In this document: in pieces, positions 13,460 through 64,000 of the stretch
How positions within the stretch are numbered: the first letter of the stretch is position 1
How the letters are laid out: each line of letters begins with the position of its first letter
Assembly (NCBI GenBank): GCA_964636505.1
Contig: CAZWRY010000002.1
Coordinates: 17,248 to 81,247 of the forward strand
Source of the DNA: an uncultured Bdellovibrionales bacterium
GTDB lineage: Bacteria; Patescibacteriota; Minisyncoccia; Moranbacterales; UBA2206
DNA length: 64,000 nt
Direction: 5' to 3'
Position numbers and translations under genes: made by a program
Notes under the pieces: generated by a model
What the model was told of the DNA's origin: nothing
Database searches by the model: none
What the model saw: the letters and a program-made list of their open reading frames with translations, nothing else

Positions 13460-13566
13460 ATTAAAAGATTTATTTAATGGGAAATTATTCTAAAAATAAG
13501 TTCCTGTTTGCAATAACTAATAGTACAGCAATCCTTTTTGTTTGTAAACCCCTTATCAACAAAAGA

Positions 13567-13604
13567 AGCCCGGAAAGGATAACGATCCTTTCCGGGCTTT
13601 TTGG
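13567..13604 (-). terminator. Strong bidirectional rho-independent terminator downstream of uvrC.
   Basis: 13-bp perfect stem AGCCCGGAAAGGA / TCCTTTCCGGGCT with a 6-nt loop and T-runs on both strands. Confidence 0.75.
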
Positions 13605-13787
13605 TCTTTCCCAATCAGCCTCAACGGATTCCTCGGACTCCGTTGAGATTTTTTAAATAACCGCTCTTATCATCTTCCTAACCTCCCTCTTGGATTTGGA
13701 TTTGGTTTTTCCCCGTTTTTCCGGGCTCCGGCTCCATTAGCCTCCTTTCTTAGGATTTTTGGCAACTCTCTTTTTATCCTATTTTAC

Positions 13788-15086
13788 TTATTTTGTCAAG
13801 AATTCGCTTTTTCTCATCTTTCTGTGATATCCAATTGCAAAACGATGCGCTTCATCTATGATTCTACCTAATAACTCTCTATCGTCTGCTATTTTTTTAA
13901 AATCATTTGAAAATTCTGTAATTGGAAATTGCTTGCCCGCTGGGCACAGCCAGAGATCAGAAATTAGAAATTGGAAATTGGAAGTTTTTCGTGTAGGACC
14001 CTTGGCAACAGCAATAATCGGAACTTTTATTCCTAAGCTCCTTAATAATTTCTCTGCCATGTTTAAGTGTCCTTGCCCTCCATCCAAGAGAATCAAGTGA
14101 GGCATCGGCCAATCATTTTTAAATCTACGTAGCAGCACCTCTTGCATCATTCCGATATCATTAATGCCCTCAACGGTTCTGATTTTGAATTTTCGGTACT
14201 GAGATTTGTTTGGCTGGCCTCCCTCAAAAACCACCATGGAGCCGACTGCGTTTTTTCCGCTAATATTGGAAATGTCGTACGCTTCAATACGAATAGTTTT
14301 TAGTTTATGTTTTTTAGTTTTTAGATCAATTTCAAAATCTTTTGAAATCAAAGCCACATCACGAATATGATTTAGCGCAAAAACTTTATTTCTTATTTCC
14401 GCCGCCTTTTCAAATTCATGATTCTTGGCTGCTAACTGCATTTCTTTTTCCAGTGTTTTAACCAGATTTTTTTTCTTACCTTCCAAAATCATCTGGATAC
14501 CATGGATATTTTTTTGATAATCTTTGAGAGTAATTGCACCGGCGTGTGGTCCCGGACAAAGTCCCAACTGAAAATCCAAACAGCCTTTTTCGGTTTCCTG
14601 CTTATTGGAATGAAAGGGGAAAATACGGCGAATTATTTTGAGCGCTACCTCCATTTGTTTTTTAAAAGTATATGGACCAAAAGCAGTTCGTAGTTTATAG
14701 TTTTTGGTTTGTAGTTTTTTAAAATCAATTTCCGTTTTTCGTAAAATCAAAACTCGCGAAAATTCTTCTTTAGTAATAACGAAATAGGAAAATGATTTAT
14801 CATCTTTAAGTTCAATGTTATATTTCGGCTGATATTTTTTGATCAAATTGCTTTCCAAAATCAAAGCCTCCAGAACAGAATCAGTCTTTTGAAAGTCAAT
14901 ATCGGCAACTTTCGGCATCATAACTTCAATATGATTTCTGGTTTCCGCGCCCCGAAAGTACGAAGCCACCCGGCTTTTTAAATTAGTTGCTTTTCCAATA
15001 TATAAAATATTTTTGGCTTTATCTTTGAAAATATATACTCCGGGATCTGATGGCAATTTGGCAATTTTTATTTTCATCTTTGACAT
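13788..15086 (-). CDS. uvrC: Excinuclease ABC subunit C (UvrC), short form without the C-terminal HhH2 domain.
   Basis: 432 aa; N-terminal GIY-YIG (PGVYIFKDKAKNILYIGKATNLKSRV), UVR domain (EFEKAAEIRNK), RNase H-like endonuclease region (RIEAYDISNISG...LLDGGQGHL...HRFAIGYHRK). Contains in-frame heptamer-repeat insertions. Confidence 0.85.
   Translation of the reverse strand: MSKMKIKIAKLPSDPGVYIFKDKAKNILYIGKATNLKSRVASYFRGAETRNHIEVMMPKVADIDFQKTDSVLEALILESNLIKKYQPKYNIELKDDKSFSYFVITKEEFSRVLILRKTEIDFKKLQTKNYKLRTAFGPYTFKKQMEVALKIIRRIFPFHSNKQETEKGCLDFQLGLCPGPHAGAITLKDYQKNIHGIQMILEGKKKNLVKTLEKEMQLAAKNHEFEKAAEIRNKVFALNHIRDVALISKDFEIDLKTKKHKLKTIRIEAYDISNISGKNAVGSMVVFEGGQPNKSQYRKFKIRTVEGINDIGMMQEVLLRRFKNDWPMPHLILLDGGQGHLNMAEKLLRSLGIKVPIIAVAKGPTRKTSNFQFLISDLWLCPAGKQFPITEFSNDFKKIADDRELLGRIIDEAHRFAIGYHRKMRKSEFLTK
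13921..13985. repeat. Miniature heptamer-repeat element inside uvrC, in frame: ATTGGAAATTG, a GC-rich hairpin segment, then AGAAATT AGAAATT GGAAATT GGAAG.
   Basis: Shares the 11-mer ATTGGAAATTG and AGAAATT tandem units with the rpoB-rpoC spacer at 60730..60775, and a GGCAAG-containing GC-rich segment with the uvrB insertion at 21855..21880. Confidence 0.7.
14295..14324. repeat. AGTTTTT-type heptamer tandem array (4 units) inside uvrC.
   Basis: AGTTTTT AGTTTAT GTTTTTT AGTTTTT; a second array lies at 14685..14720. Confidence 0.6.
14685..14720. repeat. AGTTTWT heptamer tandem array (5 units) inside uvrC.
   Basis: AGTTCGT AGTTTAT AGTTTTT GGTTTGT AGTTTTT; encodes the Lys-rich KKLQTKNYKL segment. 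Confidence 0.6.
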
Positions 15087-21090: not shown

Positions 21091-23142
21091 TCATTTTACC
21101 TTCAATTTTCGTAACTCGGAGATTTCATCGCGAATAATAGCCGCACTTTCAAACTGAAGACTGCGAGCCGCTTCTTTCATATCCTTTTCTCTTTGCTTAA
21201 TATACCCCGCAATGTTTTCCAGGCTTTCCAAATTGACAAATTCTTTGGAAATTTCCGGTTTGATTTCATGATCCACAATAGATTGAATTTTTTTCTGAAT
21301 AGTCTGAGGAGTAATGTGATGCTTTTTATTATACTCAGCTTGAATTTTTCTTCGGCGATTGGTTTCATCAATCGCTCGCTTCATTGAACCGGTAATTTGA
21401 TCGGCATACAAAATAACCCGCCCGGAAACATTTCTGGCCGCACGTCCGATTGTTTGAATAAGTGAAGTTTCACTGCGCAAAAATCCTTCCTTATCCGCAT
21501 CCAAAACCGCTACTAATTTAACTTCCGGCAAATCCAGTCCTTCACGCAATAAGTTTACTCCAACCAGAACATCAATTTCCCCCCGACGCAATTTTTCCAA
21601 AATTCTGACCCGATCCAAGGTTTCCACATTAGAATGCAAATATTCCGCTTTGATTTTATTTTCCTTTAAGAAATCGGATAAATCTTCGGCCATTTTTTTG
21701 GTAAGCGTCGTAATTAAAACTCGACCATTATCCTCCACTACTTTTCCAATTTCAATTAAAACATCTTTGACTTGTCCTTGGGTTGATTTTATCGCGAGCT
21801 CAGGATCAATGAGACCTGTTGGACGAATAACTTGCTCCACAATACCGTATTTTGCATCTTGCCTACCGGCGAGACAGATATTTTTTAATTTGTTTTTAAT
21901 TTGCGATTTGGAATTTATTTGGAATTTAGAATTTAGAATTTGTGATTTGATATATTCATACGGCCCAGGTGTCGCTGAAGTAAAAATTACCTGGTTTGTT
22001 TTTTCTTCAAATTCAGAAAATCTGAGCGGACGATTTTCATAGGCACTGGGCAAACGAAAACCATTATCAATCAAAGCGGTCTTGCGAGCCCGATCACCAT
22101 TAAACATGGCATTCAGCTGCGGCACGGTCACATGCGATTCATCAATGACCAAAAGATAGTCTTTATTAAAGTAATCCATCAATGTATATGGCGGTTCGCC
22201 TTTTTTTCTTTCAGTCAAATACAAAGAATAATTTTCAATACCATTGCAATAGCCGACTTCGCGCATCATTTCAATGTCCTGCTTGGTTCTTCTTTTCAAT
22301 CTTTCCGCTTCCAATAATTTATTTTCTTTTTTCAAATAAGCGACTCTGCCTCGCATCTCTATCTCTATCCTTTTTAATGCTTCTTCCATCAAGCCTTCAG
22401 GAACCACAAAATGTTTGGCTGGATAAATCAAAGTTTGTTTCAAGGTTCCCAGCTCTTCACCGGTCAAAAAATCATATTCCACAATTTTCTTTACCCTGCC
22501 CTTTTCAGCATTAATTCTGGTCACAATTTCGCGATCTGTCGGCATAATTTCCAATGTTTCACCGGTAAGTCTGAATTTGCCGCGGCTAAGCAATTCGCTT
22601 CTTTGAAACTGCATATCAATCAACTCTTTTATTTTTTCTTCTCGTTTGAATTCTTCGCCCACTTTTACTTCAAAACTGATATCCCGATAAAAATCCGGCG
22701 AACCCAAACCATAGATACAAGAAACAGAAGCCACAATAATCACATCACTCCGTGAAAGCAAGGCGGAAGTTGAAGCATGGCGCAAACGATCAATTTCATC
22801 ATTAATCTGCGCCTCTTTTTCAATATATGTGTCCGAAGAAGCGATGTAGGCTTCCGGCTGATAATAGTCATAGTAAGAAACAAAATATTCCACCGCATTC
22901 TTGGGAAAAAACACGCGAAATTCTTGCGCCAATTGGGCTGCCAAAGTTTTGTTGGGCGCAATCACCAAGGTTGGTTTTTGTACTTTTTCAATGACATTGG
23001 CAATTGTGAAAGTTTTACCCGATCCCGTCACACCCAAAAGCGTCTGGAATTTTTGTCCCTTTTTGAGTCCTTCCGTCAGCTTTTTAATCGCCTCTGGCTG
23101 ACTTCCGGCCGGTTTAAATTTTTTATTCAGAATAAATTTCAT
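21091..23142 (-). CDS. uvrB: Excinuclease ABC subunit B (UvrB) carrying an in-frame insertion of about 28 aa.
   Basis: 683 aa; helicase motifs (GVTGSGKT, DESH), beta-hairpin region, C-terminal UVR domain (FESAAIIRDEI). The insertion YIKSQILNSKFQINSKSQIKNKLKNICLAGRQDAKYG lies between ...SATPGPYE and IVEQVIRPTGL. Confidence 0.92.
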   Translation of the reverse strand: MKFILNKKFKPAGSQPEAIKKLTEGLKKGQKFQTLLGVTGSGKTFTIANVIEKVQKPTLVIAPNKTLAAQLAQEFRVFFPKNAVEYFVSYYDYYQPEAYIASSDTYIEKEAQINDEIDRLRHASTSALLSRSDVIIVASVSCIYGLGSPDFYRDISFEVKVGEEFKREEKIKELIDMQFQRSELLSRGKFRLTGETLEIMPTDREIVTRINAEKGRVKKIVEYDFLTGEELGTLKQTLIYPAKHFVVPEGLMEEALKRIEIEMRGRVAYLKKENKLLEAERLKRRTKQDIEMMREVGYCNGIENYSLYLTERKKGEPPYTLMDYFNKDYLLVIDESHVTVPQLNAMFNGDRARKTALIDNGFRLPSAYENRPLRFSEFEEKTNQVIFTSATPGPYEYIKSQILNSKFQINSKSQIKNKLKNICLAGRQDAKYGIVEQVIRPTGLIDPELAIKSTQGQVKDVLIEIGKVVEDNGRVLITTLTKKMAEDLSDFLKENKIKAEYLHSNVETLDRVRILEKLRRGEIDVLVGVNLLREGLDLPEVKLVAVLDADKEGFLRSETSLIQTIGRAARNVSGRVILYADQITGSMKRAIDETNRRRKIQAEYNKKHHITPQTIQKKIQSIVDHEIKPEISKEFVNLESLENIAGYIKQREKDMKEAARSLQFESAAIIRDEISELRKLKVK
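21845..21952. repeat. Miniature heptamer-repeat element inside uvrB, in frame: a GC-rich segment plus a GGAATTT / AGAATTT tandem array.
   Basis: GATTTGGAATTTATTTGGAATTTAGAATTTAGAATTTGTGATTTG plus GCCTACCGGCGAGACAG; the encoded ICLAGRQ parallels LCPAGKQ encoded by the uvrC element. Confidence 0.65.
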
Positions 23143-23333
23143 TGCTATATTTTATTTAGAACAGAACTTACACGTTTGACAATAAAAATCTGTCTCGGAG
23201 GCGTGAATTTGAAATTGATTGTTTCATGCCGTAGCACAGATTTTTAGGGGCAAACATGTGAGTTCTTTGGAATTTGATTTTATTAAAAATAAAATTCATA
23301 TTTTATTTGATAACCAATAATACTCCAAAGAAA

Positions 23334-48517: not shown

Positions 48518-48564
48518 GAAATGTTTTGTTTCATGTTTCATGTTCTATGTTTTATGAGTGTATG
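48518..48564 (+). repeat. NNNNATG heptamer ladder (CATGTT units) ending at the rpsF start codon.
   Basis: ATG triplets at 48521, 48533, 48540, 48547, 48554 and 48562 (spacing 12,7,7,7,8); the last is the S6 start. Confidence 0.65.
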
Positions 48565-49993: not shown

Positions 49994-50038
49994 TATTTTC
50001 ATGTTATATGTTCCATGTTTTATGTTTCATGAATTATG
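49994..50038 (+). repeat. Perfect 7-nt NNNNATG ladder of six units ending at the efp start codon.
   Basis: ATG at 50001, 50008, 50015, 50022, 50029 and 50036, each exactly 7 nt apart; the last is the efp start. Confidence 0.7.
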
Positions 50039-53311: not shown

Positions 53312-53382
53312 TTAAACTTTTCAATCCTTATGAAATCTATAGAATTTATAAACTTTACGAACTTTATAAGCTTTTAGCTTCT

Positions 53383-57064: not shown

Positions 57065-60000
57065 TTAGTCTTTCTTGCGATAACCGGTCCCAGCTGGGAT
57101 AAGTTTACCAATGATGACATTCTCCTTGAGACCTCGAAGCTTGTCTTCTTTGCCAACCACTGCGGCATTGATGAGAACTCTGGCGGTTTCTTGGAAAGAT
57201 GCAGCTGAGAGGAAGCTTTCAGTTGAAAGAGCTACTTTGGTAATACCCATGAGCAGTCTTTCGCCTTTAGCCAACTCTTTGCCCTCGGCTTTCATTTGAG
57301 CATTAACTTCGTCAAATTCATCTTTTTCAACAATTTCACCTGAAACCAAAGTTGAGTTGCCTGAATCACTAATGAGCACACGGCTCAGCATCTGACGCAC
57401 GATAACTTCAATGTGCTTATCATTGATGCCTTCTCCCTGGGAAGCATAAATTTCCTGAATTTCACGGACAATATATCTGTGAACTTCTTCCCATCCCATT
57501 GTCTTGTATAAATTCTTGAGCTCAATATTACCTTCAACCAATTTGGAACCCTTGCCAACCAAATCACCTTCGGCTACTTTCAAAGTGCTGCCGGCTGAAA
57601 CTTGATATTCTTCAATCTTCTTAGTTTTGTCTTGCGATTCAATTTTGACAGTAATTACTTTTTCGCCATGAATAATTTCCGTTACTTTCCCATCCACTTG
57701 AGCGATAGCTGCTTCTCCTTTTGGGGGCCTGGCTTCAAAAAGTTCTTCTACACGCGGCAAACCTTGGGTGATGTCAGATCCGGCAATACCTCCAATATGG
57801 AAAGTACGCATGGTTAGCTGTGTTCCCGGTTCGCCAATAGCCTGAGCAGCTACAATTCCAACTGCCTGTCCAACTTGAACCAGCTGCCCGCGTCCCAAAT
57901 CAACTCCGTAACATTTCTGGCAAACACCGCGAGAAGTTTTGCAAGTCACGACTGATCTGATTTTTACTTTAGGAATATTCAATTTCTCAATTCTGTTGCC
58001 TTGCTCCTTGTTGATCAAAGCGCCTTTTTCCACAATGATTTCGCCGGAATGCGGATCAGTTACATTTTCCAGAACTACTCGGCCAATAACACGTGCGGCA
58101 AAACTTTGTCCGATTCTATCCGAATCTTCCTTATACAAATATATTCCAGTCTTGTCTTTGCAATCTTCCTCTTGAATAATAACATCCTGAGAAACATCCA
58201 CGAGCCTTCGGGTTAAATATCCGGCGGTCGCAGTTCTGAGGGCAGTATCGGCCATACCTTTTCTGGCTCCGTGAGTAGAAATGAAATATTCAAGTACATT
58301 CAAACCTTCTTTGTAGCAGCTCTTGATTGGCAGTTCAATGGTTTCCCCGGTTGGTCCAGCCATGAGTCCTTTCATACCAGACATCTGTACCACCACCGAT
58401 TCGGAACCTCTGGCTTTGGAATAAACCATAGAATAAACTGGGCCTTCCTTGTCCATCGATCCGCGCACCAATTCAGTGATAGTATTTTTAGTGTTGTTCC
58501 AAATTTCAATCACTCGGACTTTTCTTTCCTCTTCAGTCAAAAGTCCCATGTTATATTGTTGTTTGACCACTTCCACTTTTTCTTCCGCTTCAGCCATCAG
58601 TCTTTGCTTTTCAGCCGGAACAGTCAAATCTTCCATGCCCCAGCTTATACCTGATTTGGTCACAAATTCAAATCCAAGGCTCTTGATATCATCAATAAAT
58701 CTGACTGCTTCATCATGTCCGGATGTTTCCATTACTTTGGCTACTAAGGCTTTGAGTTCCTTTTTGGTCATTTCTTCATTTAAAAATCTCATGGATTCCG
58801 GCAAAATTTCATTGAGTCTGATTCGGCCAATAGTCGTTTCAATTATCTGACCGTTGTACATGACTTTTATTTTTGCTTGGATATCAATCACTCCCAATTC
58901 ATAGGCCATTACCGCTTCATTGAAAGATCCAAAAACTCGGCCCTCGCCTTTAGCTCCAGCCAAAGTGTGGGTAATATAATAACAGCCCAAGACCATATCC
59001 AAAGTCGGAGTGGTAATTGGATCGCCACTGGCCGGCTTCAAAAGATTTTTAGAACTGAGCATTAAGTTTTCGCTTTCCCATCTGGCTTTATCTGTCAAAG
59101 GAACATGTGCTGCCATCTGGTCTCCATCAAAGTCAGCATTGAAAGCGCTACATACCATTGGATGAACCTGGATAGCTTTGCCTTCAATTAAAACTGGCCT
59201 GAAAGCTTGGATACTCAAACGATGCAAGGTCGGAGCACGGTTCAACATTACATAGTGATGCGAAATGATTTCATCCAAAATTTCATATGATTCTTCGCTT
59301 TCAGCTTCTACCATTTTGCCGGCGCTGCGCACATTGTAGGCAGCTTCTCTTTCAATTAATTTATTAATAATGAACGGTTTAAAAAGTTCCAAAGCCATTT
59401 TCTTTGGGATACCGCATTGATAAATTTTGAGTTTTGGTCCAACCACAATAACGCTTCTTCCGGAATAATCCACGCGCTTACCCAAAAGGTTTTGTCTGAA
59501 ACGTCCTTGCTTTCCTTTCAGTGTGTCCGCCAAAGATCTGAGGGCTCTCTTTTGACCAGTAGAAGCAGCAACGCTTACTTGTCCGCGTCTGGCATTGTTA
59601 TCAAACAAAGCATCTACAGCTTCCTGAAGCATTCTTTTTTCATTACGGGTGATAACTTCCGGCGCACCGATTTCAATTAATTTTTTAAGACGATTATTTC
59701 TGTTAATAATTCGACGATAAAGATCGTTCAAATCGGAAGTCGCAAAGCGTCCTCCGTCCAAGGCTACCATCGGGCGAAGATCTGGCGGGATAACCGGAAT
59801 AACTGTCGGCAACATCCATTCTAATTTTAAGCCTGCTTTCAAAAAGCCTTGGAACAACTTAATTCTCTTTAATATTTTTTTCTTATCGGCAATTTCTTCG
59901 TCATTCAATTCATTTTTAAGTTTTTTTATTTCCTCTTCAACTTTGATGCTTTCTAAAACTCTTCTGACTGCTTCAGCTCCGATGCCGGCTGAAAAAACTT

Positions 60001-60640
60001 GCCCGTAGCGGGAAGACAAATTGAAATATTCAAGTTCAGAAATAATTTTCAGCTTAGCCAGACTCTTAAGTTCATCCTTGGCTGTTTTGTAAATATTTTT
60101 CAGTTCTTCTGTTTTCTGGTTTTTTTCTGCCTCTTCCAGCTTATTGATTTCTTTGATTTTGCCCTTGTATTCCTGATCCAACTGATTCAAAGCTTTGCTT
60201 CTTTCTTCTTCGTCTACATTCAAAATCATGTAGCTGGAAAAATAGATAATCTTTTCCAACTCTTGTGGACTCATGCCAAGCGCCATTCCGATTTTTGAAG
60301 GAACACCACGCAAAAACCAAATATGTGAAACCGGCACAGCCAACTGGATGTGTCCCATTCTTTCGCGTCGTACGCTGGAGCGAGTTACTTCCACTCCGCA
60401 CTTATCGCAGACAATACCCTTATATCTGATTCTTTTGTATTTTCCGCAATAACATTCCCAGTCCTTGGAAGGCCCAAATATTTTTTCACAGAAAAGGCCG
60501 TCCTTTTCATAGCGTTGCGTTCTGTAGTTAATGGTTTCCGGACGAGTTACCTCTCCGTTAGACCAACCCAAAACTTCATCGGGACTGGCGAGTTTTATTT
60601 TGACACTGTTAAAATCACTTACTTTAGTTATAGAGTCCAT
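57065..60640 (-). CDS. rpoC: DNA-directed RNA polymerase subunit beta'.
   Basis: 1191 aa; zinc-binding CYCGKYK...CDKCGVEV, NADFDGD catalytic motif, trigger loop and bridge helix regions. Confidence 0.97.
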   Translation of the reverse strand: MDSITKVSDFNSVKIKLASPDEVLGWSNGEVTRPETINYRTQRYEKDGLFCEKIFGPSKDWECYCGKYKRIRYKGIVCDKCGVEVTRSSVRRERMGHIQLAVPVSHIWFLRGVPSKIGMALGMSPQELEKIIYFSSYMILNVDEEERSKALNQLDQEYKGKIKEINKLEEAEKNQKTEELKNIYKTAKDELKSLAKLKIISELEYFNLSSRYGQVFSAGIGAEAVRRVLESIKVEEEIKKLKNELNDEEIADKKKILKRIKLFQGFLKAGLKLEWMLPTVIPVIPPDLRPMVALDGGRFATSDLNDLYRRIINRNNRLKKLIEIGAPEVITRNEKRMLQEAVDALFDNNARRGQVSVAASTGQKRALRSLADTLKGKQGRFRQNLLGKRVDYSGRSVIVVGPKLKIYQCGIPKKMALELFKPFIINKLIEREAAYNVRSAGKMVEAESEESYEILDEIISHHYVMLNRAPTLHRLSIQAFRPVLIEGKAIQVHPMVCSAFNADFDGDQMAAHVPLTDKARWESENLMLSSKNLLKPASGDPITTPTLDMVLGCYYITHTLAGAKGEGRVFGSFNEAVMAYELGVIDIQAKIKVMYNGQIIETTIGRIRLNEILPESMRFLNEEMTKKELKALVAKVMETSGHDEAVRFIDDIKSLGFEFVTKSGISWGMEDLTVPAEKQRLMAEAEEKVEVVKQQYNMGLLTEEERKVRVIEIWNNTKNTITELVRGSMDKEGPVYSMVYSKARGSESVVVQMSGMKGLMAGPTGETIELPIKSCYKEGLNVLEYFISTHGARKGMADTALRTATAGYLTRRLVDVSQDVIIQEEDCKDKTGIYLYKEDSDRIGQSFAARVIGRVVLENVTDPHSGEIIVEKGALINKEQGNRIEKLNIPKVKIRSVVTCKTSRGVCQKCYGVDLGRGQLVQVGQAVGIVAAQAIGEPGTQLTMRTFHIGGIAGSDITQGLPRVEELFEARPPKGEAAIAQVDGKVTEIIHGEKVITVKIESQDKTKKIEEYQVSAGSTLKVAEGDLVGKGSKLVEGNIELKNLYKTMGWEEVHRYIVREIQEIYASQGEGINDKHIEVIVRQMLSRVLISDSGNSTLVSGEIVEKDEFDEVNAQMKAEGKELAKGERLLMGITKVALSTESFLSAASFQETARVLINAAVVGKEDKLRGLKENVIIGKLIPAGTGYRKKD

Positions 60641-60780
60641 ATTATAAATAAATTTTCAAATCTCAATTTTCAATTTTCAATCAATGATCAATTTTCAATT
60701 TTTTAATTTCAAAAATTTAGTCATTGAATCATTGGAAATTGTTTAGAAATTAGAAATTAGAAATTAGAAATTTGTTAATC
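60641..60780. repeat. AT-rich heptamer tandem arrays (TCAATTT x about 5, then ATTGGAAATTG plus AGAAATT x4) filling the rpoB-rpoC spacer.
   Basis: Direct reading; shares the 11-mer ATTGGAAATTG and AGAAATT units with the uvrC-internal element. Confidence 0.75.
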
Positions 60781-60794
60781 AAAAAATTCATTGC

Positions 60795-63700
60795 TTATAC
60801 CTGTGTGTCAGTATCACCTTTCTCTTCTTTCATGTCTTCATCTTCTTCTTTCTTGGCACCAATAAGTTCAATGCTGAGTGATAAGCCTTTGAGCTCATTT
60901 ACCAAAACATTGAAAGATGTCGGGATATTTGGACTCTTTATCATTTCACCCTTAATAATAGATTCATAAGCTTTCGATCTGCCCATTACATCATCTGATT
61001 TTATGGTAAGCATTTCTTGCAATGTATACGCTGCTCCATAACCTTCAAGCGCCCAAACTTCCATTTCTCCAAATCGCTGTCCTCCAAACTGAGCTTTTCC
61101 TCCTAGAGGTTGCTGCGTAATCAAGGAATACGGACCAATGGAGCGCATATGAATTTTATCATCCACCAAATGATGCAGCTTCATCACATACATAACGCCC
61201 ACGGTGGATTTATTGTCAAAATATTCACCGGTCTTTCCATTAACTAATCTTATTTTTCCATCTTCCGGCAAACCGGCTTTAGTTAGTTCTTCTTTAATTT
61301 GTTTTTCCGAAACTCCGTCCAAAGCTGGAGAAGCCGCTTTATATCCAAGCCTAGAAGCTGCCCAACCTAAATGAGTTTCCAAAATTTGACCAATGTTCAT
61401 ACGACTGGCCACACCCAAAGGATTAAGCACCATATCTACCGGAGTTCCATCCGGAAGATAGGGCATATCTTCAGCCGGAGCAATTCTGGAAATAACACCT
61501 TTGTTTCCATGGCGTCCGGCCAATTTATCTCCTACAGAAATTTTCTTGAGTTGGGCAACGGAAACTTGAATCTGCTGGATAACTCCAGTAGTAAGCTTGT
61601 CTCCTTGTTCGCGTGAAAATATTTTAATATCCACAACCTTTCCGTATTCTCCGTGCGGTAAATAAAGCGAACTGTCTTTAACATCTCTGGATTTCTCCCC
61701 AAAGATGGCACGCAGCAATCTTTCCTCACTGGTCAGATCGCCTTCGCCTTTGGGAGAAATTTTTCCAACCAAAATATCGCCAGATTTTACTTCCGCTCCA
61801 ATTCTGATAATCCCGGTTTCATCCAAATTCTTAAGCCTTTCTTCTCCAATATTTGGAATATCTCGGGTCACTACCTCCGGCCCAAGTTTTGTATCGCGAA
61901 CATCAATAGAAAAATCTTCAATGTGAATTGAACTGTATCTATCGTCTTGCAAAAGTTTTTCAGAAATTACGATAGCATCTTCGTAGTTGAAACCTTCCCA
62001 AGGAATAAAAGCTACCAAGATGTTTTGTCCGAGCGCCAATTCTCCATGATCAGTTGAAGCACCATCTGCCAAAAGTTTTCCCTTTTTCACTAAATCACCT
62101 TTTTTGACCCTTGGAATTTGGTTCATACAAGTGAAGGCATTGGATTTAACAAAATTTTGCAACAAATATTCTCGGCGCAAGTAAGGTTTTTTAGAGCCAA
62201 CCTTGGCTTCTTCTTTAACTACGATGTGAGAACTGTCTACTTCCACAACTTCACCAGCCTCTTTGGCATTAACAACTTGTCCTGAATCAGAAGCTGATTT
62301 GTCCTCGATTCCGGTTCCAACAATTGGCGCTTCCGGCTTTACACAAGAAACAGCTTGTCGCTGCATGTTTGAACCCATGAGTGCACGGTTGGCATCGTCA
62401 TGTTCCAAAAATGGAATCAAGGCGGTTGCCACCGAAATCATTTGCTTGCAAGAAACATCGATATAATCAATTTTTTCCGCTTCAATTTCAGCCGCATTAC
62501 CTCTTACTCTGGCTTCAACAATTTTATCCATTACATTTCCAAACTCATCCAATCTTATTCCGGCATGAGCGATATTTTTTCTGTCTTCTTGGGTTGCATT
62601 CACATATTCAATCTCATCGCTCATCCAAGGTTTGATTTTTACAGTCTTTATTTTTTTATTGCCAGCTAAAGCTTTGGCTATTTTTTCATCTATAAAAGTT
62701 TCCGCTTTAATGCCGTCAATATCTTCACTTAAAAATTTGTGCAGTATTTTTTCTTCGATGTTTTCAACTTCTTGATAAACCTTGAAGTAAGGAGTTTCCA
62801 AAAATCCATATTTATTTATCTTAGCGTAGGTTGCCAAATGTCCAACCAAACCAATGTTTGGACCTTCTGGAGTTTCTACTGGACAAATTCTTCCATAGTG
62901 CGAATGATGCACATCACGGACTTCAAACCCAGCTCTTTCGCGGGTTAGCCCTCCGGGGCCCATGGCCGAAAGCCTTCGTTTGTGTTCCAGCTCGGCCAAT
63001 GGATTAACCTGATCCATGAATTGAGAAAGCTGAGAACTGGAAAAAAATTCTTTAATAGCCGCTGCAATTGGACGAGAGTTAATGAGTTGTCCCGGAACCA
63101 CTGTATTAATTTCACAAGTACTCATTCTGTCTTTGATGTTTCTGACCATTCTGGCAAAACCGACGCGTAATTTATTTTGTACTAATTCTCCAATCGCTCT
63201 CACTCTTCTGTTGCCCAAGTGATCAATATCGTCCGCTACCGCAGTTTTGTCATTATTCAATCGGATAATTTCTTTGATGATAGCCACCAAATCTTCTCTG
63301 CGCAGAACACGATAATCTTCCGTGTTTGGAAAATCAAATTCCAATCTTTGGTTGAGTCTATACCTGCCGACTTCTCCAAAGTCATATCTTTCAAAATTAA
63401 AAAACATTGAATCAATCATTTGTTTGGCATTATCTTCGGTTGCCAAATCTCCTGGACGAATTCTTTTGTAAACTTCTTTATATCCTTCGCCTTGATTTTT
63501 GGTAATATCCTTTTCAATAGTTTTTTGGATATATTTTGTTTCACCATTATCAGTATCTTTGAAAAGATCCAATAAATCTTTATCACTAGAATATCCAAAA
63601 GCCCGGAGCAAGGCTGTTACCGGTACTTTTCTTTTTCGGTCAATTTTTACCGAAAGGACGCCTTCAAAGTCCGTATCAATTTCCAGCCAGGCTCCACGGT

Positions 63701-64000
63701 TAGGAATAATTTTGGCCCCAAAAAGTCTCTTGCCTTTTTGATATTCCATCGTAAAGAAAACTCCCGGGCTTCTGATAAGCTGGCTAACTACGACTCTTTC
63801 CACTCCGTTAATCAAAAAAGTTCCGCGATCAGTCATAATAGGAAAATCCCCCAGGTAGATTTCCTGTTCTTTTATTTCGCCTGTGCTCTTGATGACTAAT
63901 TTTACTTTGCAACGAAGCGGGGCTTCATAGGAGATGTTTTTATTCTTAGCGGTTATTTCATCATATTTCGGATCATCCAAATAGTAATCTTCAAAGTAGA
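60795..64000 (-). CDS. rpoB: DNA-directed RNA polymerase subunit beta, 5'-truncated by the window edge (about 70 N-terminal residues missing).
   Basis: Reading frame stays open to the window end (...EDYYLDDPKYDE...); the ORF-track start M at 63980 is a TTG codon, not the true start. Conserved rpoB blocks throughout (GDK..GRHGNKGV, NADFDGD-partner regions). Confidence 0.95.
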   Translation of the reverse strand, partial: YFEDYYLDDPKYDEITAKNKNISYEAPLRCKVKLVIKSTGEIKEQEIYLGDFPIMTDRGTFLINGVERVVVSQLIRSPGVFFTMEYQKGKRLFGAKIIPNRGAWLEIDTDFEGVLSVKIDRKRKVPVTALLRAFGYSSDKDLLDLFKDTDNGETKYIQKTIEKDITKNQGEGYKEVYKRIRPGDLATEDNAKQMIDSMFFNFERYDFGEVGRYRLNQRLEFDFPNTEDYRVLRREDLVAIIKEIIRLNNDKTAVADDIDHLGNRRVRAIGELVQNKLRVGFARMVRNIKDRMSTCEINTVVPGQLINSRPIAAAIKEFFSSSQLSQFMDQVNPLAELEHKRRLSAMGPGGLTRERAGFEVRDVHHSHYGRICPVETPEGPNIGLVGHLATYAKINKYGFLETPYFKVYQEVENIEEKILHKFLSEDIDGIKAETFIDEKIAKALAGNKKIKTVKIKPWMSDEIEYVNATQEDRKNIAHAGIRLDEFGNVMDKIVEARVRGNAAEIEAEKIDYIDVSCKQMISVATALIPFLEHDDANRALMGSNMQRQAVSCVKPEAPIVGTGIEDKSASDSGQVVNAKEAGEVVEVDSSHIVVKEEAKVGSKKPYLRREYLLQNFVKSNAFTCMNQIPRVKKGDLVKKGKLLADGASTDHGELALGQNILVAFIPWEGFNYEDAIVISEKLLQDDRYSSIHIEDFSIDVRDTKLGPEVVTRDIPNIGEERLKNLDETGIIRIGAEVKSGDILVGKISPKGEGDLTSEERLLRAIFGEKSRDVKDSSLYLPHGEYGKVVDIKIFSREQGDKLTTGVIQQIQVSVAQLKKISVGDKLAGRHGNKGVISRIAPAEDMPYLPDGTPVDMVLNPLGVASRMNIGQILETHLGWAASRLGYKAASPALDGVSEKQIKEELTKAGLPEDGKIRLVNGKTGEYFDNKSTVGVMYVMKLHHLVDDKIHMRSIGPYSLITQQPLGGKAQFGGQRFGEMEVWALEGYGAAYTLQEMLTIKSDDVMGRSKAYESIIKGEMIKSPNIPTSFNVLVNELKGLSLSIELIGAKKEEDEDMKEEKGDTDTQV

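What the first reader, a model, noticed from the sequence alone, without database searches (positions are those of the whole stretch)
60641..60794. rpoB-rpoC spacer is composed almost entirely of tandem heptamers
The 154-bp spacer reads TCAATTT x about 5, then ATTGGAAATTG TTT AGAAATT x4. The same 11-mer and AGAAATT units occur inside uvrC, and TCAATTT/CAAATTC-like units occur in the uvrB upstream region (23190..23280). Period-7 AT-rich arrays in a core operon spacer could act as A-tract-like bent DNA, binding sites for a nucleoid or regulatory protein, or copies of a mobile miniature element.
Basis: seen in the sequence. Interest (0 to 1): 0.55.

Follow-up and report, generated by a model that had tools for sequence, protein, structure and literature searches.

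The report
Dispersed palindromic repeat in rpoB–rpoC spacer
The run of 7-base repeats between the two RNA polymerase genes is one copy of a small, AT-rich, hairpin-shaped repeat element scattered through the genomes of these uncultured Patescibacteria (between genes, inside genes, even inside ribosomal RNA), so it behaves like a miniature mobile element and was not built as a signal for this operon.

Summary
The 154-bp rpoB–rpoC spacer (60641–60794) holds two period-7 arrays, and period 7 is the only repeat period enriched in the window (10 segments against 0.13 in shuffles).

The arrays are not local slippage products. Together they form one ~126-nt imperfect palindrome (60650–60775). Its 25-nt core occurs exactly in at least 120 metagenome contigs with unrelated flanks, in hosts of 27–55% GC.

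A profile of 67 copies found 165 copies in the DNA held:
- They usually fill the stop-to-start gap between co-directional housekeeping genes, in either orientation.
- Partial copies lie in-frame inside ORFs, including this window's uvrC.
- One copy lies inside a 23S rRNA gene.

Close relatives show presence/absence, replacement and unit-number changes at the same spacer. Where the copy is retained it is 77–95% identical, while rpoC fourfold sites are saturated.

I found no Rfam match, terminator, phased A-tracts or covariation. No transposase or target-site duplication turned up either.

Best reading: an apparently undescribed MITE/RPE-like repeat family of Moranbacteria-type Patescibacteria. 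A secondary role in rpoC expression is possible but unproven.

The parts
60795..63980 (-). 3' part of rpoB (beta subunit); stop codon TAA at 60795-60797
   Evidence: ORF list and NCBIfam TIGR02013, 1525 bits
60776..60794 (-). Short non-element linker between the rpoB stop codon and the element
   Evidence: Lies outside the nhmmer envelope. Differs in length and sequence between relatives
60650..60775 (-). One full copy of the dispersed heptamer-built palindromic element (profile positions 12-137 of 142)
   Evidence: nhmmer 85.8 bits, E 1.9e-24 on the minus strand and 36.6 bits on the plus strand. The 25-nt core is found in at least 120 metagenome contigs
60721..60772 (-). 5' arm in mRNA sense: (AATTTCT)x4 AAACAATTTCCAATGATTCAATGA. 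On the plus strand this reads as ATTGGAAATTG, TTT, AGAAATT x4
   Evidence: Sequence; TRF 60743-60772, 100% matches. Most conserved block of the family
60699..60720 (-). Variable central region, the loop of the predicted hairpin
   Evidence: MFE fold. Central regions differ between copies, 61% median identity
60650..60698 (-). 3' arm in mRNA sense: TTGAAAATTGATCATTGATTG(AAAATTG)n...GAAAATTT. On the plus strand this is the TCAATTT array
   Evidence: TRF 60651-60702; family consensus CATTGTTTGAAAATTGAAAATT..GAAAATT
60641..60649 (-). 9-nt linker ATTTATAAT between the element and the rpoC start codon; no Shine-Dalgarno motif
   Evidence: Sequence. Conserved in L083, L084, L088 and L089
57065..60640 (-). 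rpoC (beta' subunit), 1191 aa
   Evidence: NCBIfam TIGR02386, 1618 bits, full length
13898..13990 (-). In-frame half copy (5' arm, profile positions 11-79) inside uvrC. It encodes ..SNFQFLISD[LWLCPAGK]QFPITEF.., interrupted by a 24-nt GC-rich mini-hairpin at 13932-13955
   Evidence: nhmmer E 1.6e-7; translation; alignment with 19 UvrC homologues
21850..21939 (-). 30-residue insert in UvrB (residues 402-431), made of heptamer repeats (AATTTGG/AATTTAG-type, 21898-21956) plus a GC-rich segment. Probable degenerate relative of the element; below the profile threshold
   Evidence: TRF, translation. The insert is absent from all solved UvrB chains. No nhmmer hit at E<=1e-3

Best explanation
**What it is (shown).** The spacer is occupied by one copy of a non-coding, AT-rich (~17-20% GC), ~110-140-nt imperfect-palindromic repeat element. 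Both arms are built from ~7-nt units: AATTTCT/AATTTTC on one side and their near-complement TTGAAAA on the other. The element belongs to a family that is dispersed in many copies through the genomes of Moranbacteria-type Patescibacteria.

**How it got there (inferred).**
- The family spreads like a miniature, non-autonomous mobile element (MITE/RPE-like).
- It survives mainly where it does little harm: in the few bases between a stop codon and the next start codon inside operons, in surface loops of proteins as in-frame partial copies, and in a variable helix of 23S rRNA.
- Unit number inside the arms then drifts by slippage.

**What it does here (inferred).**
- In this window it is co-transcribed with rpoB and rpoC.
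- It carries no terminator.
- Its arms can fold back into a long, weak AU-rich hairpin.
- Its A-rich 3' arm now forms most of the SD-less leader of rpoC.
- That position probably explains why this copy has been kept nearly unchanged in several related species.
- It was not built as an rpoBC-specific signal.
For: **Family membership**
There are 107 distinct contexts with unrelated flanks.
- A profile of 67 full copies scores the window spacer at 85.8 bits, E 1.9e-24.

**Dispersal and context**
- 165 distinct copies were found in the DNA held. Of those placed between two called genes, 79 lie between co-directional genes (44 sense, 35 antisense), 5 between convergent and 1 between divergent genes. 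12 lie inside ORFs. The median gap is 3 nt from the upstream stop and 6 nt to the downstream start.
- Ends are sharp (AATTTCT... ...TTGAAAATT) and abut unrelated DNA.
- Neighbouring genes are housekeeping genes: rpsH, atpF/H/A, sufBC, ssb, pgi, scpA.

**Signs of mobility**
- Host loci range from 27 to 55% GC while the element stays at ~17-20%.
- L083 and L085 have 99.6% identical rpoC yet carry different spacers. L082 has no element, and P0009's spacer is only 34 nt.
- At the ftsK-downstream site, L130 has a full copy, L213 a degenerate one, and L210 and L211 none.
- Three copies on contig L100 share a 91-98% identical variable centre, against a 61% median between contigs.
- The Logan contig L081 breaks inside the array.

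**Other contexts**
- In-frame half copies translate as ISNFQFLISKQFPISNF or ENCLEIRNWKLEI. These include uvrC of this window.
- One copy lies in a 155-nt expansion of a 23S rRNA loop.

**Operon compatibility**
- No terminator-like site is present in 60300-61100.
Against: - No target-site duplication could be recognised.
- No transposase or autonomous partner was found. All ten ORFs examined between pairs of copies have housekeeping functions.
- The 64-kb window holds only one full copy plus one or two partial copies.
- The predicted hairpin of the window copy is no better than shuffles (z -0.9 to -1.7).
- Neither the five orthologous copies nor 60 family members show compensatory changes.
- The orthologous rpoBC copies are 77-95% identical while rpoC fourfold-degenerate sites are saturated at 41-51%. 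Six other orthologous spacers are unalignable. This points to constraint, which a purely selfish element does not predict.
- All DNA comes from metagenome assemblies, which can mis-join at repeats.
Confidence: 0.7

Rival explanations
1. Exapted operon-internal RNA module. The family, whatever its origin, is kept by the host because the transcribed AU-rich palindrome does something general inside polycistronic mRNAs. Candidate roles are an RNase III processing or stability hairpin (as proposed for REP/BIME, ERIC and Correia elements), or a platform for a single-strand RNA-binding protein with a ~7-nt footprint (cold-shock or S1-type) that promotes re-initiation at SD-less start codons. Because the element is a palindrome, either orientation presents the same U/C-rich arm first and the same A/G-rich arm last.
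For: - The orthologous rpoBC copies are 77-95% identical while rpoC fourfold sites are at 41-51%. Other spacers of the same genome pair are unalignable.
- Copies sit almost exactly between stop and start codons of core, highly expressed operons: rpoBC, spc, atp, suf.
- They are depleted in divergent (promoter) spacers: 1 of 85, against 56 of 635 adjacent gene pairs.
- No SD motif precedes rpoC, rpsF or efp.
- Several family relatives fold far better than shuffles, z -3 to -7.
- One copy occupies a 23S rRNA site of the kind where intervening sequences are cut out by RNase III in other bacteria (the IVS point is my own knowledge).
- A similar proposal exists for TAACTGA heptamer repeats upstream of start codons (PMC4679880).
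Against: - There is no covariation. G-to-T changes in all 3'-arm units of L083 and L084 break C-G pairs without compensation.
- The hairpin of the window copy is not significant.
- The element is dispensable or replaceable in close relatives: L082, L085, P0009.
- It is not conserved at the orthologous ftsK-downstream site.
- Partial copies occur inside ORFs, where no such role applies.
Confidence: 0.25
2. Local slippage product. The two arrays are ordinary heptanucleotide long simple-sequence repeats that arose in situ by replication slippage, with no relation to sequences elsewhere.
For: - Heptanucleotide repeats are the commonest long SSR class in many bacteria, and a polymerase-slippage origin has been proposed (Mrazek 2007, as summarised in PMC4679880 and PMC4692102).
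- Unit number differs between relatives: 3 units in L089 against 4 in the window. L088 lacks a 15-column block and a 7-column block of the 3' arm.
- Period 7 is the only enriched period in 203 kb of this clade, with 23 arrays against at most 3 for any other period.
Against: - The arrays are embedded in a conserved non-repetitive core (AAACAATTTCCAATGA ... CATTGTTTG) that recurs in more than 100 unrelated loci.
- The element has sharp termini.
- It is present with the same sequence in hosts of very different GC content.
Confidence: 0.03
3. A dedicated cis-regulatory element of the rpoBC operon, such as an attenuator, a processing site or an internal promoter evolved for rpoC control.
For: - Strong conservation in five species of the clade.
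- Several distant Patescibacteria also carry heptamer palindromes in this same spacer: L014, L019, L037, L043, L071, L073.
- Weak sigma-70-like matches lie in the 3' arm.
Against: - The same sequence sits in more than 100 other contexts, and none of the 120 fetched metagenome loci contains rpoB or rpoC.
- It is absent or replaced in close relatives.
- There is no terminator and no Rfam family.
- The promoter-like matches number 4 against 2.1 +/- 1.6 in shuffles, and none is placed to produce a usable rpoC leader.
Confidence: 0.05
4. A DNA-level signal: intrinsically bent A-tract DNA, or an array of sites for a nucleoid-associated protein.
For: - Extremely AT-rich, with an AATT core recurring every ~7 bp.
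- The arms are conserved in sequence, not in pairing.
- Fold energies are similar on both strands, so the symmetry exists at DNA level.
Against: - AA/TT periodicity shows no power at 10-11 bp; 7-bp phasing does not add up to a planar bend.
- No candidate protein is known.
- Copies inside ORFs and rRNA, and the depletion from promoter regions, are not what a transcription-related DNA signal predicts.
Confidence: 0.05

Closest known systems
Rickettsia palindromic elements (RPE) (own knowledge: Ogata et al. 2000)
   Same: Both are ~100-150-bp palindromic, non-coding, dispersed repeats. Both are found in intergenic DNA, inside RNA genes, and in-frame inside protein-coding genes, where they add a peptide segment without destroying the protein. 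Both occur in small genomes of host-dependent bacteria.
   Different: Different phylum, and no sequence relationship was tested. The present element is built throughout from ~7-nt units, and mostly half copies are seen in ORFs. Its preferred site is the stop-to-start gap of operons.
Intergenic MITE-like palindromes of proteobacteria: Neisseria Correia elements, enterobacterial ERIC/IRU (own knowledge)
   Same: Both are 100-155-bp imperfect palindromes with long inverted terminal regions and tens to hundreds of copies. They are often co-transcribed with neighbouring genes, show presence/absence between strains, occur in either orientation, and encode no transposase.
   Different: Correia elements have a TA target duplication, an IHF site and demonstrated RNase III processing. 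None of these could be shown here: the TSD test was inconclusive. Those elements also lack an internal heptamer periodicity.
Heptanucleotide long simple-sequence repeats: TAACTGA repeats of Beggiatoaceae, cyanobacteria and Bacteroidetes (PMC4679880); GGGAATC of Xanthomonas and GGGGAYT of Nostoc (PMC4692102); cyanobacterial STRR
   Same: All are 7-nt units in tandem, mostly intergenic, often directly upstream of SD-less start codons and inside ribosomal-protein or other core operons. Unit number and sequence vary between close relatives, and some occur as inverted pairs. Function is unknown.
   Different: Those are open-ended arrays of one unit. Here the units form the two arms of a bounded element with a conserved non-repeat core and sharp ends, copied as a whole to many loci.
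REP/BIME and REPIN-RAYT systems (PMC3116915 listed; details from own knowledge)
   Same: Both are short palindromic extragenic repeats inside operons. REP/BIME are thought to act as mRNA stabilisers and are spread by a domesticated transposase.
   Different: REPs are 20-40 nt, GC-rich and strictly extragenic. No RAYT-like gene was seen next to any copy examined.
Intervening sequences of 23S rRNA (helix 25/45 IVS; own knowledge) and the rRNA insertions reported for Candidate Phyla Radiation bacteria (own knowledge: Brown et al. 2015)
   Same: In L108 a copy forms the tip of a 155-nt expansion that replaces a 13-nt loop of 23S rRNA domain II.
   Different: This is only one context of many for this element. 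Excision from the rRNA was not tested.

Membership tests
Heptanucleotide long simple-sequence repeat (local slippage array) | Head-to-tail copies of a 7-nt unit, longer than chance allows | tested here: met
   TRF scores 55 and 60. Period 7 gives 10 segments against 0.13 in shuffles.
Heptanucleotide long simple-sequence repeat (local slippage array) | Unit number varies between close relatives | tested here: met
   AATTTCT is x4 in the window and x3 in L089. 3'-arm units are missing in L088.
Heptanucleotide long simple-sequence repeat (local slippage array) | The array arose locally and shares no non-repeat sequence with arrays at other loci | tested here: not met
   A conserved non-repeat core and both arms recur in at least 107 unrelated contexts.
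MITE (miniature inverted-repeat transposable element) | Small (<~300 bp) and non-coding | tested here: met
   The core-to-3'-end distance is 70-148 nt and the profile has 142 positions. Stop codons occur in all frames of the consensus arms.
MITE (miniature inverted-repeat transposable element) | Terminal inverted repeats | tested here: met
   The 5' arm AATTTCTAATTTTCAATTTCTAATTTCTAAACAATG.. is matched by the reverse complement of the 3' arm, AATTTTCAATT..CAATTTTCAATTTTCAAACAATG. Every copy is also hit on the opposite strand.
MITE (miniature inverted-repeat transposable element) | Many dispersed copies with unrelated flanks, several per genome | tested here: met
   165 copies were found. Up to 4 lie on a 9.4-kb contig (L103) and 3 on L100, the latter sharing a near-identical centre.
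MITE (miniature inverted-repeat transposable element) | Filled and empty orthologous sites | tested here: met
   In the rpoB-rpoC spacer, L082 is empty, L085 has the same 73 bp plus a 133-bp related element, and L083 carries the window type. At the ftsK-downstream site the element is present in L130 and absent in L210 and L211.
MITE (miniature inverted-repeat transposable element) | Target-site duplication | tested here: inconclusive
   The flanks of 50 full copies show no consistent direct repeat. AT-rich, variable-length termini blur the junction.
MITE (miniature inverted-repeat transposable element) | A cognate autonomous element or transposase with the same ends | tested here: inconclusive
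   All ten ORFs lying between pairs of copies are housekeeping genes. No genome-wide search was possible.
Rickettsia-palindromic-element-like behaviour | In-frame copies inside conserved protein genes, absent from homologues | tested here: met
   UvrC carries a half copy. UvrB has a 30-residue insert absent from solved structures. 12 intragenic copies have open frames.
Rickettsia-palindromic-element-like behaviour | Sequence homology to a described RPE family | not tested
REP / REPIN-RAYT | 20-40-nt GC-rich palindromes, strictly extragenic, with a RAYT gene in the genome | tested here: not met
   The element is 110-140 nt and ~17-20% GC, and occurs in ORFs and rRNA. The RAYT gene was not searched genome-wide.
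23S rRNA intervening sequence | Extra stem-loop in a variable 23S helix | tested here: met
   This applies to the L108 copy only: a 155-nt insert replaces 13 model positions (~681-693) of Rfam LSU_rRNA_bacteria.
23S rRNA intervening sequence | Excised from the mature rRNA by RNase III | not testable with these tools
   Needs RNA data.
TIGR (tandem interspaced guide RNA) array | ~36-nt units of two alternating 8-12-nt repeats with 9-nt variable spacers, next to a Nop-domain Tas gene (PMC12045711) | tested here: not met
   The only period is 7, there are no variable spacers, and the flanking genes are rpoB and rpoC.
Known structured RNA (Rfam) | Match to a curated covariance model | tested here: not met
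   No hit at gathering score in the window. The best E-value in the spacer is 2.3, far below the gathering score.
Intrinsic terminator / attenuator | GC-rich stem followed by a U tract | tested here: not met
   0 terminator-like sites in 60300-61100.
Phased A-tract bent DNA | A/T tracts repeated in phase with the helix (~10-11 bp) | tested here: not met
   AA/TT power at periods 10, 10.5 and 11 is below the shuffle mean.

The most novel reading that the evidence does not exclude
The heptamer-built palindromes may be more than tolerated junk. They could be a Patescibacteria-wide class of operon-internal RNA modules that the host depends on. As symmetric elements they work in either orientation between a stop and the next SD-less start codon. 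They would set relative expression of neighbouring cistrons in core operons (rpoBC, ribosomal protein, ATP synthase), either through RNase III cleavage or through cooperative binding of a protein with a 7-nt footprint. The same element would supply the raw material for the rRNA expansions and protein inserts typical of these organisms.
Probability: 0.2. Interest if true: 0.7.

Novelty: new member of a known kind. Interest (0 to 1): 0.5.

Why it matters
- **Annotation.** It explains an odd-looking core-operon spacer without invoking a new regulatory signal. It also flags a repeat family that, as far as the searchable literature shows, has not been described.
- **Assembly.** The family is abundant in Moranbacteria-type Patescibacteria. 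It breaks short-read assemblies: L081 starts inside the array.
- **Source of inserts.** It inserts into essential operons, proteins and 23S rRNA. That offers a concrete origin for some of the rRNA expansions and low-complexity protein inserts (ISNFQFP-type) seen in these reduced genomes.
- **Open question made testable.** One copy is conserved far beyond neutral expectation inside rpoBC. Metatranscriptomes could show whether such elements have been recruited for mRNA processing or translation in organisms that cannot be cultured.

Tried and rejected
- **Rfam.** No family matched, either at gathering score over the whole window or in an E-value scan of the spacer.
- **Promoter and terminator scan.** No terminator was found, and promoter-like matches were not above shuffles.
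- **RNA hairpin as the selected feature.**
  - The window copy has z -0.9 to -1.7.
  - Sense and antisense energies are alike, so there is no strand-specific G-U signature.
  - RNAalifold on 5 orthologues and on 60 family members gave one compensatory pair each and a weak consensus energy.
- **Bent DNA.** There is no 10-11-bp AA/TT periodicity.
- **TIGR or CRISPR-like array.** The unit size is wrong, there are no spacers, and there is no Tas gene.
- **Composite transposon.** All ten ORFs examined between neighbouring copies are housekeeping genes.
- **Phage carriage.** The 25-mer core has no match in 2.9 million viral contigs.
- **Recombination tract between L083 and L085.** SNPs are scattered, so no imported tract explains the swapped spacer.
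- **Target-site duplication.** None was recognisable.
- **Literature.** Searches for the motif strings and for MITEs or heptanucleotide repeats in Patescibacteria returned nothing relevant.
- **Coverage gaps.**
  - The species-representative genome scan contained no relative closer than 75% rpoC identity, so close relatives had to be fetched by protein identity.
  - One relative (P0009) gave gene coordinates but no DNA.
Full report
**1. The observation**

The window is AT-rich (37.6% GC). rpoB (60795 to beyond 63980) and rpoC (57065–60640) both lie on the minus strand and were identified with NCBIfam equivalog models. The gap between the rpoB stop codon and the rpoC ATG is exactly 60641–60794, 154 bp.

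Tandem Repeats Finder gives two period-7 arrays in the spacer:
- 60651–60702: 7.9 copies at 75% matches.
- 60743–60772: 4.3 copies at 100% matches.

My own autocorrelation scan found ten period-7 segments in the window against 0.13 in block shuffles. Among periods 4–15, period 9 gave two segments, periods 5 and 14 one each, and the others none.

The remark about the region upstream of uvrB is not: there is no array there. There is one inside uvrB at 21898–21956.

**2. Organism**

The best rpoC matches are metagenome-assembled Patescibacteria (Candidate Phyla Radiation). Named hits are mostly Moranbacteria/Moraniibacteriota or Parcubacteria. No tRNA gene and no Rfam family is found in the 64 kb.

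**3. Period 7 is a property of the lineage**

| DNA set | Size | Period-7 arrays | Any other period |
|---|---|---|---|
| Window plus nine loci from close relatives | 203 kb | 23 | at most 3 |
| rpoBC loci from 80 more distant Patescibacteria species | 639 kb | 14 | at most 5 |

Several of the arrays in distant species again lie in the rpoB–rpoC spacer. They are often arranged as two arms that are reverse complements of each other. Heptanucleotide repeats are already known as the commonest long simple-sequence repeat in many bacteria (Mrázek 2007, as summarised in PMC4679880 and PMC4692102).

**4. The same spacer in close relatives**

I fetched contigs encoding rpoC proteins 88–100% identical to the window's.

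| Locus | rpoC aa identity | Spacer |
|---|---|---|
| Window | – | 154 nt |
| L081 | 100% | identical sequence, but the contig starts inside the array |
| L089 | 88% | 157 nt |
| L088 | 91% | 115 nt |
| L083 / L084 | 93% / 92% | 123 nt |
| L085–L087 | 92% | 206 nt |
| L082 | 93% | 73 nt |
| P0009 | 90% | 34 nt (coordinates only, no DNA) |

Sources.

- In mRNA sense the window-type spacer reads: (AATTTCT)n AAACAATTTCCAATGA, then a loop, then TCATTGATTG(AAAATTG)n … TTTATTTATAAT ATG.
- L082 has no such element.
- L085–L087 carry the L082 73-bp spacer plus a different 133-bp heptamer palindrome inserted directly after the stop codon. Three independent assemblies agree on this.
- L083 and L085 are 99.6% identical in rpoC and 99.4% in the last 900 nt of rpoB. 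Their SNPs are scattered, yet they carry these two unrelated spacers.
- Unit number also varies: AATTTCT ×3 in L089 against ×4 in the window, and 3′-arm units are missing in L088.

**5. The spacer is one copy of a dispersed family**

I scanned the metagenome collection for the 25-nt core shared by all five window-type spacers, AATTTCTAATTTCTAAACAATTTYC.

- The flanks are unrelated, with 107 distinct contexts.
- None of the fetched loci contains rpoB or rpoC.

Sixty-seven full copies give this consensus:

AATTTctAATTTtcAATTTCTAATTTCTAAACAATTTcCAATga…(variable centre)…cATTGTTTGAAAATTGAAAATTgaaAATTGAAAATT

It is an imperfect palindrome with an AATT core recurring about every 7 nt.

A profile HMM of these copies scores the window spacer at 85.8 bits (E 1.9e-24) over 60650–60775 on the gene strand, and 36.6 bits on the other strand.

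**6. Where the copies sit**

Across all DNA held there are 165 distinct copies.

| Context | Copies |
|---|---|
| Between co-directional genes | 79 (44 sense, 35 antisense) |
| Between convergent genes | 5 |
| Between divergent genes | 1 |
| Inside ORFs | 12 |
| Next to contig ends or uncalled genes | the remainder |

- In the same loci, adjacent gene pairs number 520 co-directional, 59 convergent and 56 divergent.
- The element typically fills the gap. The median is 3 nt from the upstream stop codon and 6 nt to the downstream start.
- Ends are sharp and abut unrelated DNA. I could not recognise a target-site duplication.
- Genes bracketed by copies have housekeeping functions and none is a transposase: rpsH in the ribosomal-protein operon, atpF/atpH/atpA, sufB/sufC, ssb, pgi, scpA and a glycosyltransferase.
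- Host loci range from 27 to 55% GC while the element stays near 17–20%.
- A 53%-GC locus (L130) is also Moraniibacteriota, judging by the named FtsK hits.
- A related copy lies upstream of rpoB in an Azambacteria MAG (L043).
- The core is absent from the viral contig collection.
- Three copies on contig L100 share a 91–98% identical variable centre. The median between contigs is 61% and the 99th percentile 85%. This indicates amplification within a genome.

**7. Copies in genes and in rRNA**

Intragenic hits are mostly half elements with an open frame. They read ISNFQFLISKQFPISNF in sense or ENCLEIRNWKLEI in antisense.

*uvrC of this window.*
- It contains such a half copy at 13898–13990 (E 1.6e-7). 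It encodes SNFQFLISD…QFPITEF.
- The same peptide motif sits at that position in many UvrC homologues. Other homologues carry NQISNSKFLISNKIPNSKSQ- or NFQFPISNFQ-type inserts elsewhere.
- The window copy is interrupted by a 24-nt GC-rich mini-hairpin that none of 19 homologues has.
- Similar GC-rich mini-hairpins are nested in several metagenome copies.

*UvrB of this window.* It carries a 30-residue insert (residues 402–431) made of heptamer repeats. The insert is absent from every solved UvrB.

*23S rRNA.* In L108 a copy forms the tip of a 155-nt expansion that replaces a 13-nt loop in domain II. From my own knowledge, this region is where intervening sequences occur in other bacteria.

**8. 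What the element is not**

- It matches no Rfam family.
- It has no terminator, and promoter-like matches do not exceed shuffles.
- AA/TT periodicity has no 10–11-bp component, so it is not phased A-tract DNA.
- It is not a TIGR array. Those have ~36-nt units with variable spacers next to a Nop-domain gene (PMC12045711).

**9. Structure**

- The window spacer folds into one long imperfect hairpin (−24.9 kcal/mol), but shuffles do as well (z −0.9 to −1.7).
- Other members and related palindromes fold much better than shuffles, with z from −3 to −7.
- Energies are alike on both strands, so the symmetry is a DNA-level property. There is no strand-specific G–U signature.
- Neither five orthologous copies nor 60 family members show compensatory changes.
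- In L083 and L084 all three 3′-arm units changed G to T, which breaks C–G pairs.

**10. Constraint against turnover**

*Constraint at rpoBC.*
- Between genome pairs whose rpoC fourfold-degenerate sites are saturated (41–51% identical), the rpoBC copy is 77–95% identical.
- Six other orthologous spacers of window against L089 are unalignable.
- The rpoBC copies share private features, such as GATCATTG and GAGATTTGAAAATTT. They are therefore orthologues kept by descent, which implies constraint at this site.

*Turnover elsewhere.*
- The site has been emptied or refilled in L082, L085 and P0009.
- At the ftsK-downstream site of another clade the element is full in L130, degenerate in L213 and absent in L210 and L211. 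An adjacent terminator-like hairpin is conserved in all four.

The family as a whole therefore turns over, and constraint is local.

**11. Interpretation**

*Shown.* The spacer is a member of a dispersed, bounded, palindromic, non-coding repeat family that occupies many unrelated sites, including ORFs and rRNA.

*Inferred.*
- The family spreads as a non-autonomous mobile element, by a mechanism I could not identify: no target-site duplication and no transposase was found.
- Slippage adjusts the unit number.
- The rpoBC copy is co-transcribed. Because it now supplies the leader of an essential, SD-less gene, or through an acquired processing or binding role, it is held under constraint.

I put 0.7 on the mobile-repeat reading. 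I put 0.25 on the stronger claim that the family has a general host function in operon mRNAs. The other rivals receive only a few per cent each.

**12. Comparison and novelty**

- In behaviour the closest known elements are the Rickettsia palindromic elements (in-frame in genes, in RNA genes and in spacers) and Correia/ERIC-type intergenic palindromes. Both comparisons rest on my own knowledge.
- In composition it resembles the heptanucleotide repeat arrays described for Beggiatoaceae, Xanthomonas and cyanobacteria (PMC4679880, PMC4692102).
- It differs from the former by its pervasive 7-nt periodicity, and from the latter by being a bounded unit copied as a whole.
- I found no description of it in the searchable literature. 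I therefore rate it a new member of a known kind.

**Limits**

- All sequences are metagenome assemblies.
- No complete genome of the source organism was examined.
- No RNA or protein-binding data exist.

Noticed in passing
window 48521-48561 and 49997-50038 (+ strand): (NNNNATG)n heptamer arrays (TTTCATG-type) lie directly upstream of rpsF and efp. The last ATG of the second array is the efp start codon. L089, L104 and L155 have (ATGTTCC)n arrays directly upstream of ssb in the same gene cluster. In L089 the last ATG of the array is the ssb start codon. In L104 the array is one arm of a palindrome. This is probably a second family of heptamer-built elements.
   Followed up: partly
window 53313-53374: A period-9 array (TAAACTTTA, 6.9 copies) fills the 71-bp spacer between ftsK and the RodZ-like gene. 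In relatives the same spacer holds unrelated heptamer palindromes of 130-175 nt.
   Followed up: partly
window 13932-13955 (inside uvrC): A 24-nt GC-rich mini-hairpin (CTCTGGCTGTGCCCAGCGGGCAAG, encoding LWLCPAGK) is inserted in-frame within the half element. It is absent from 19 UvrC homologues. Similar GC-rich hairpins (e.g. GTCCGCCnAAGGCGGATCCGCC..GGCGGA) are nested in element copies of L095, L101, L114, L120, L137, L165, L181, L187, L197 and L207. This is possibly a second, smaller insertion element.
   Followed up: partly
window 21850-21939 (inside uvrB): A 30-residue insert (about ILNSKFQINSKSQIKNKLKNICLAGRQDAK) lies between the two blocks that align to solved UvrB structures. It is encoded by heptamer repeats plus a GC-rich segment.
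   Followed up: partly
window 14294-14324 and 14683-14719 (inside uvrC): Two further period-7 arrays (TAGTTTT/TAGTTTA on the plus strand) lie inside the uvrC reading frame. Some UvrC homologues carry long low-complexity inserts (NQISNSKFLISNKIPNSKSQ) near the second position.
   Followed up: no
window 13788-15086: UvrC is only 432 aa against a 574-position equivalog model. Its nearest homologues are 403-487 aa, so the short form is typical of the lineage and is not a truncation in this window.
   Followed up: partly
window 13460-13787: A 330-bp gap without a long ORF lies between the 949-aa ORF and uvrC. It contains two GC-rich inverted repeats (cccggaaaggataacgatcctttccgggc and cctcaacggattcctcggactccgttgagat). 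No Rfam hit.
   Followed up: no
L130 2693-2780, L210, L211, L213 (ftsK-RodZ-like spacer): A terminator-like hairpin ACAAAAACAGG-N7-CCTGTTTTTGTGT is conserved in four species whose ftsK fourfold sites are saturated. It sits next to the variable insertion site.
   Followed up: no
L083 9878-10000 versus L085 4047-4252: Two assemblies with 99.6% identical rpoC and 99.4% identical rpoB 3' ends carry entirely different rpoB-rpoC spacers. No recombination tract is visible in the flanks.
   Followed up: yes
L108 12405-12536: A second, weak (22-bit) match to the element profile lies further along the same 23S rRNA gene. Its position in the rRNA structure was not examined.
   Followed up: no
window, whole: No tRNA gene and no Rfam family at gathering score in 64 kb. 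Start codons of rpoC, rpsF, efp and uvrB are not preceded by a recognisable Shine-Dalgarno motif.
   Followed up: no
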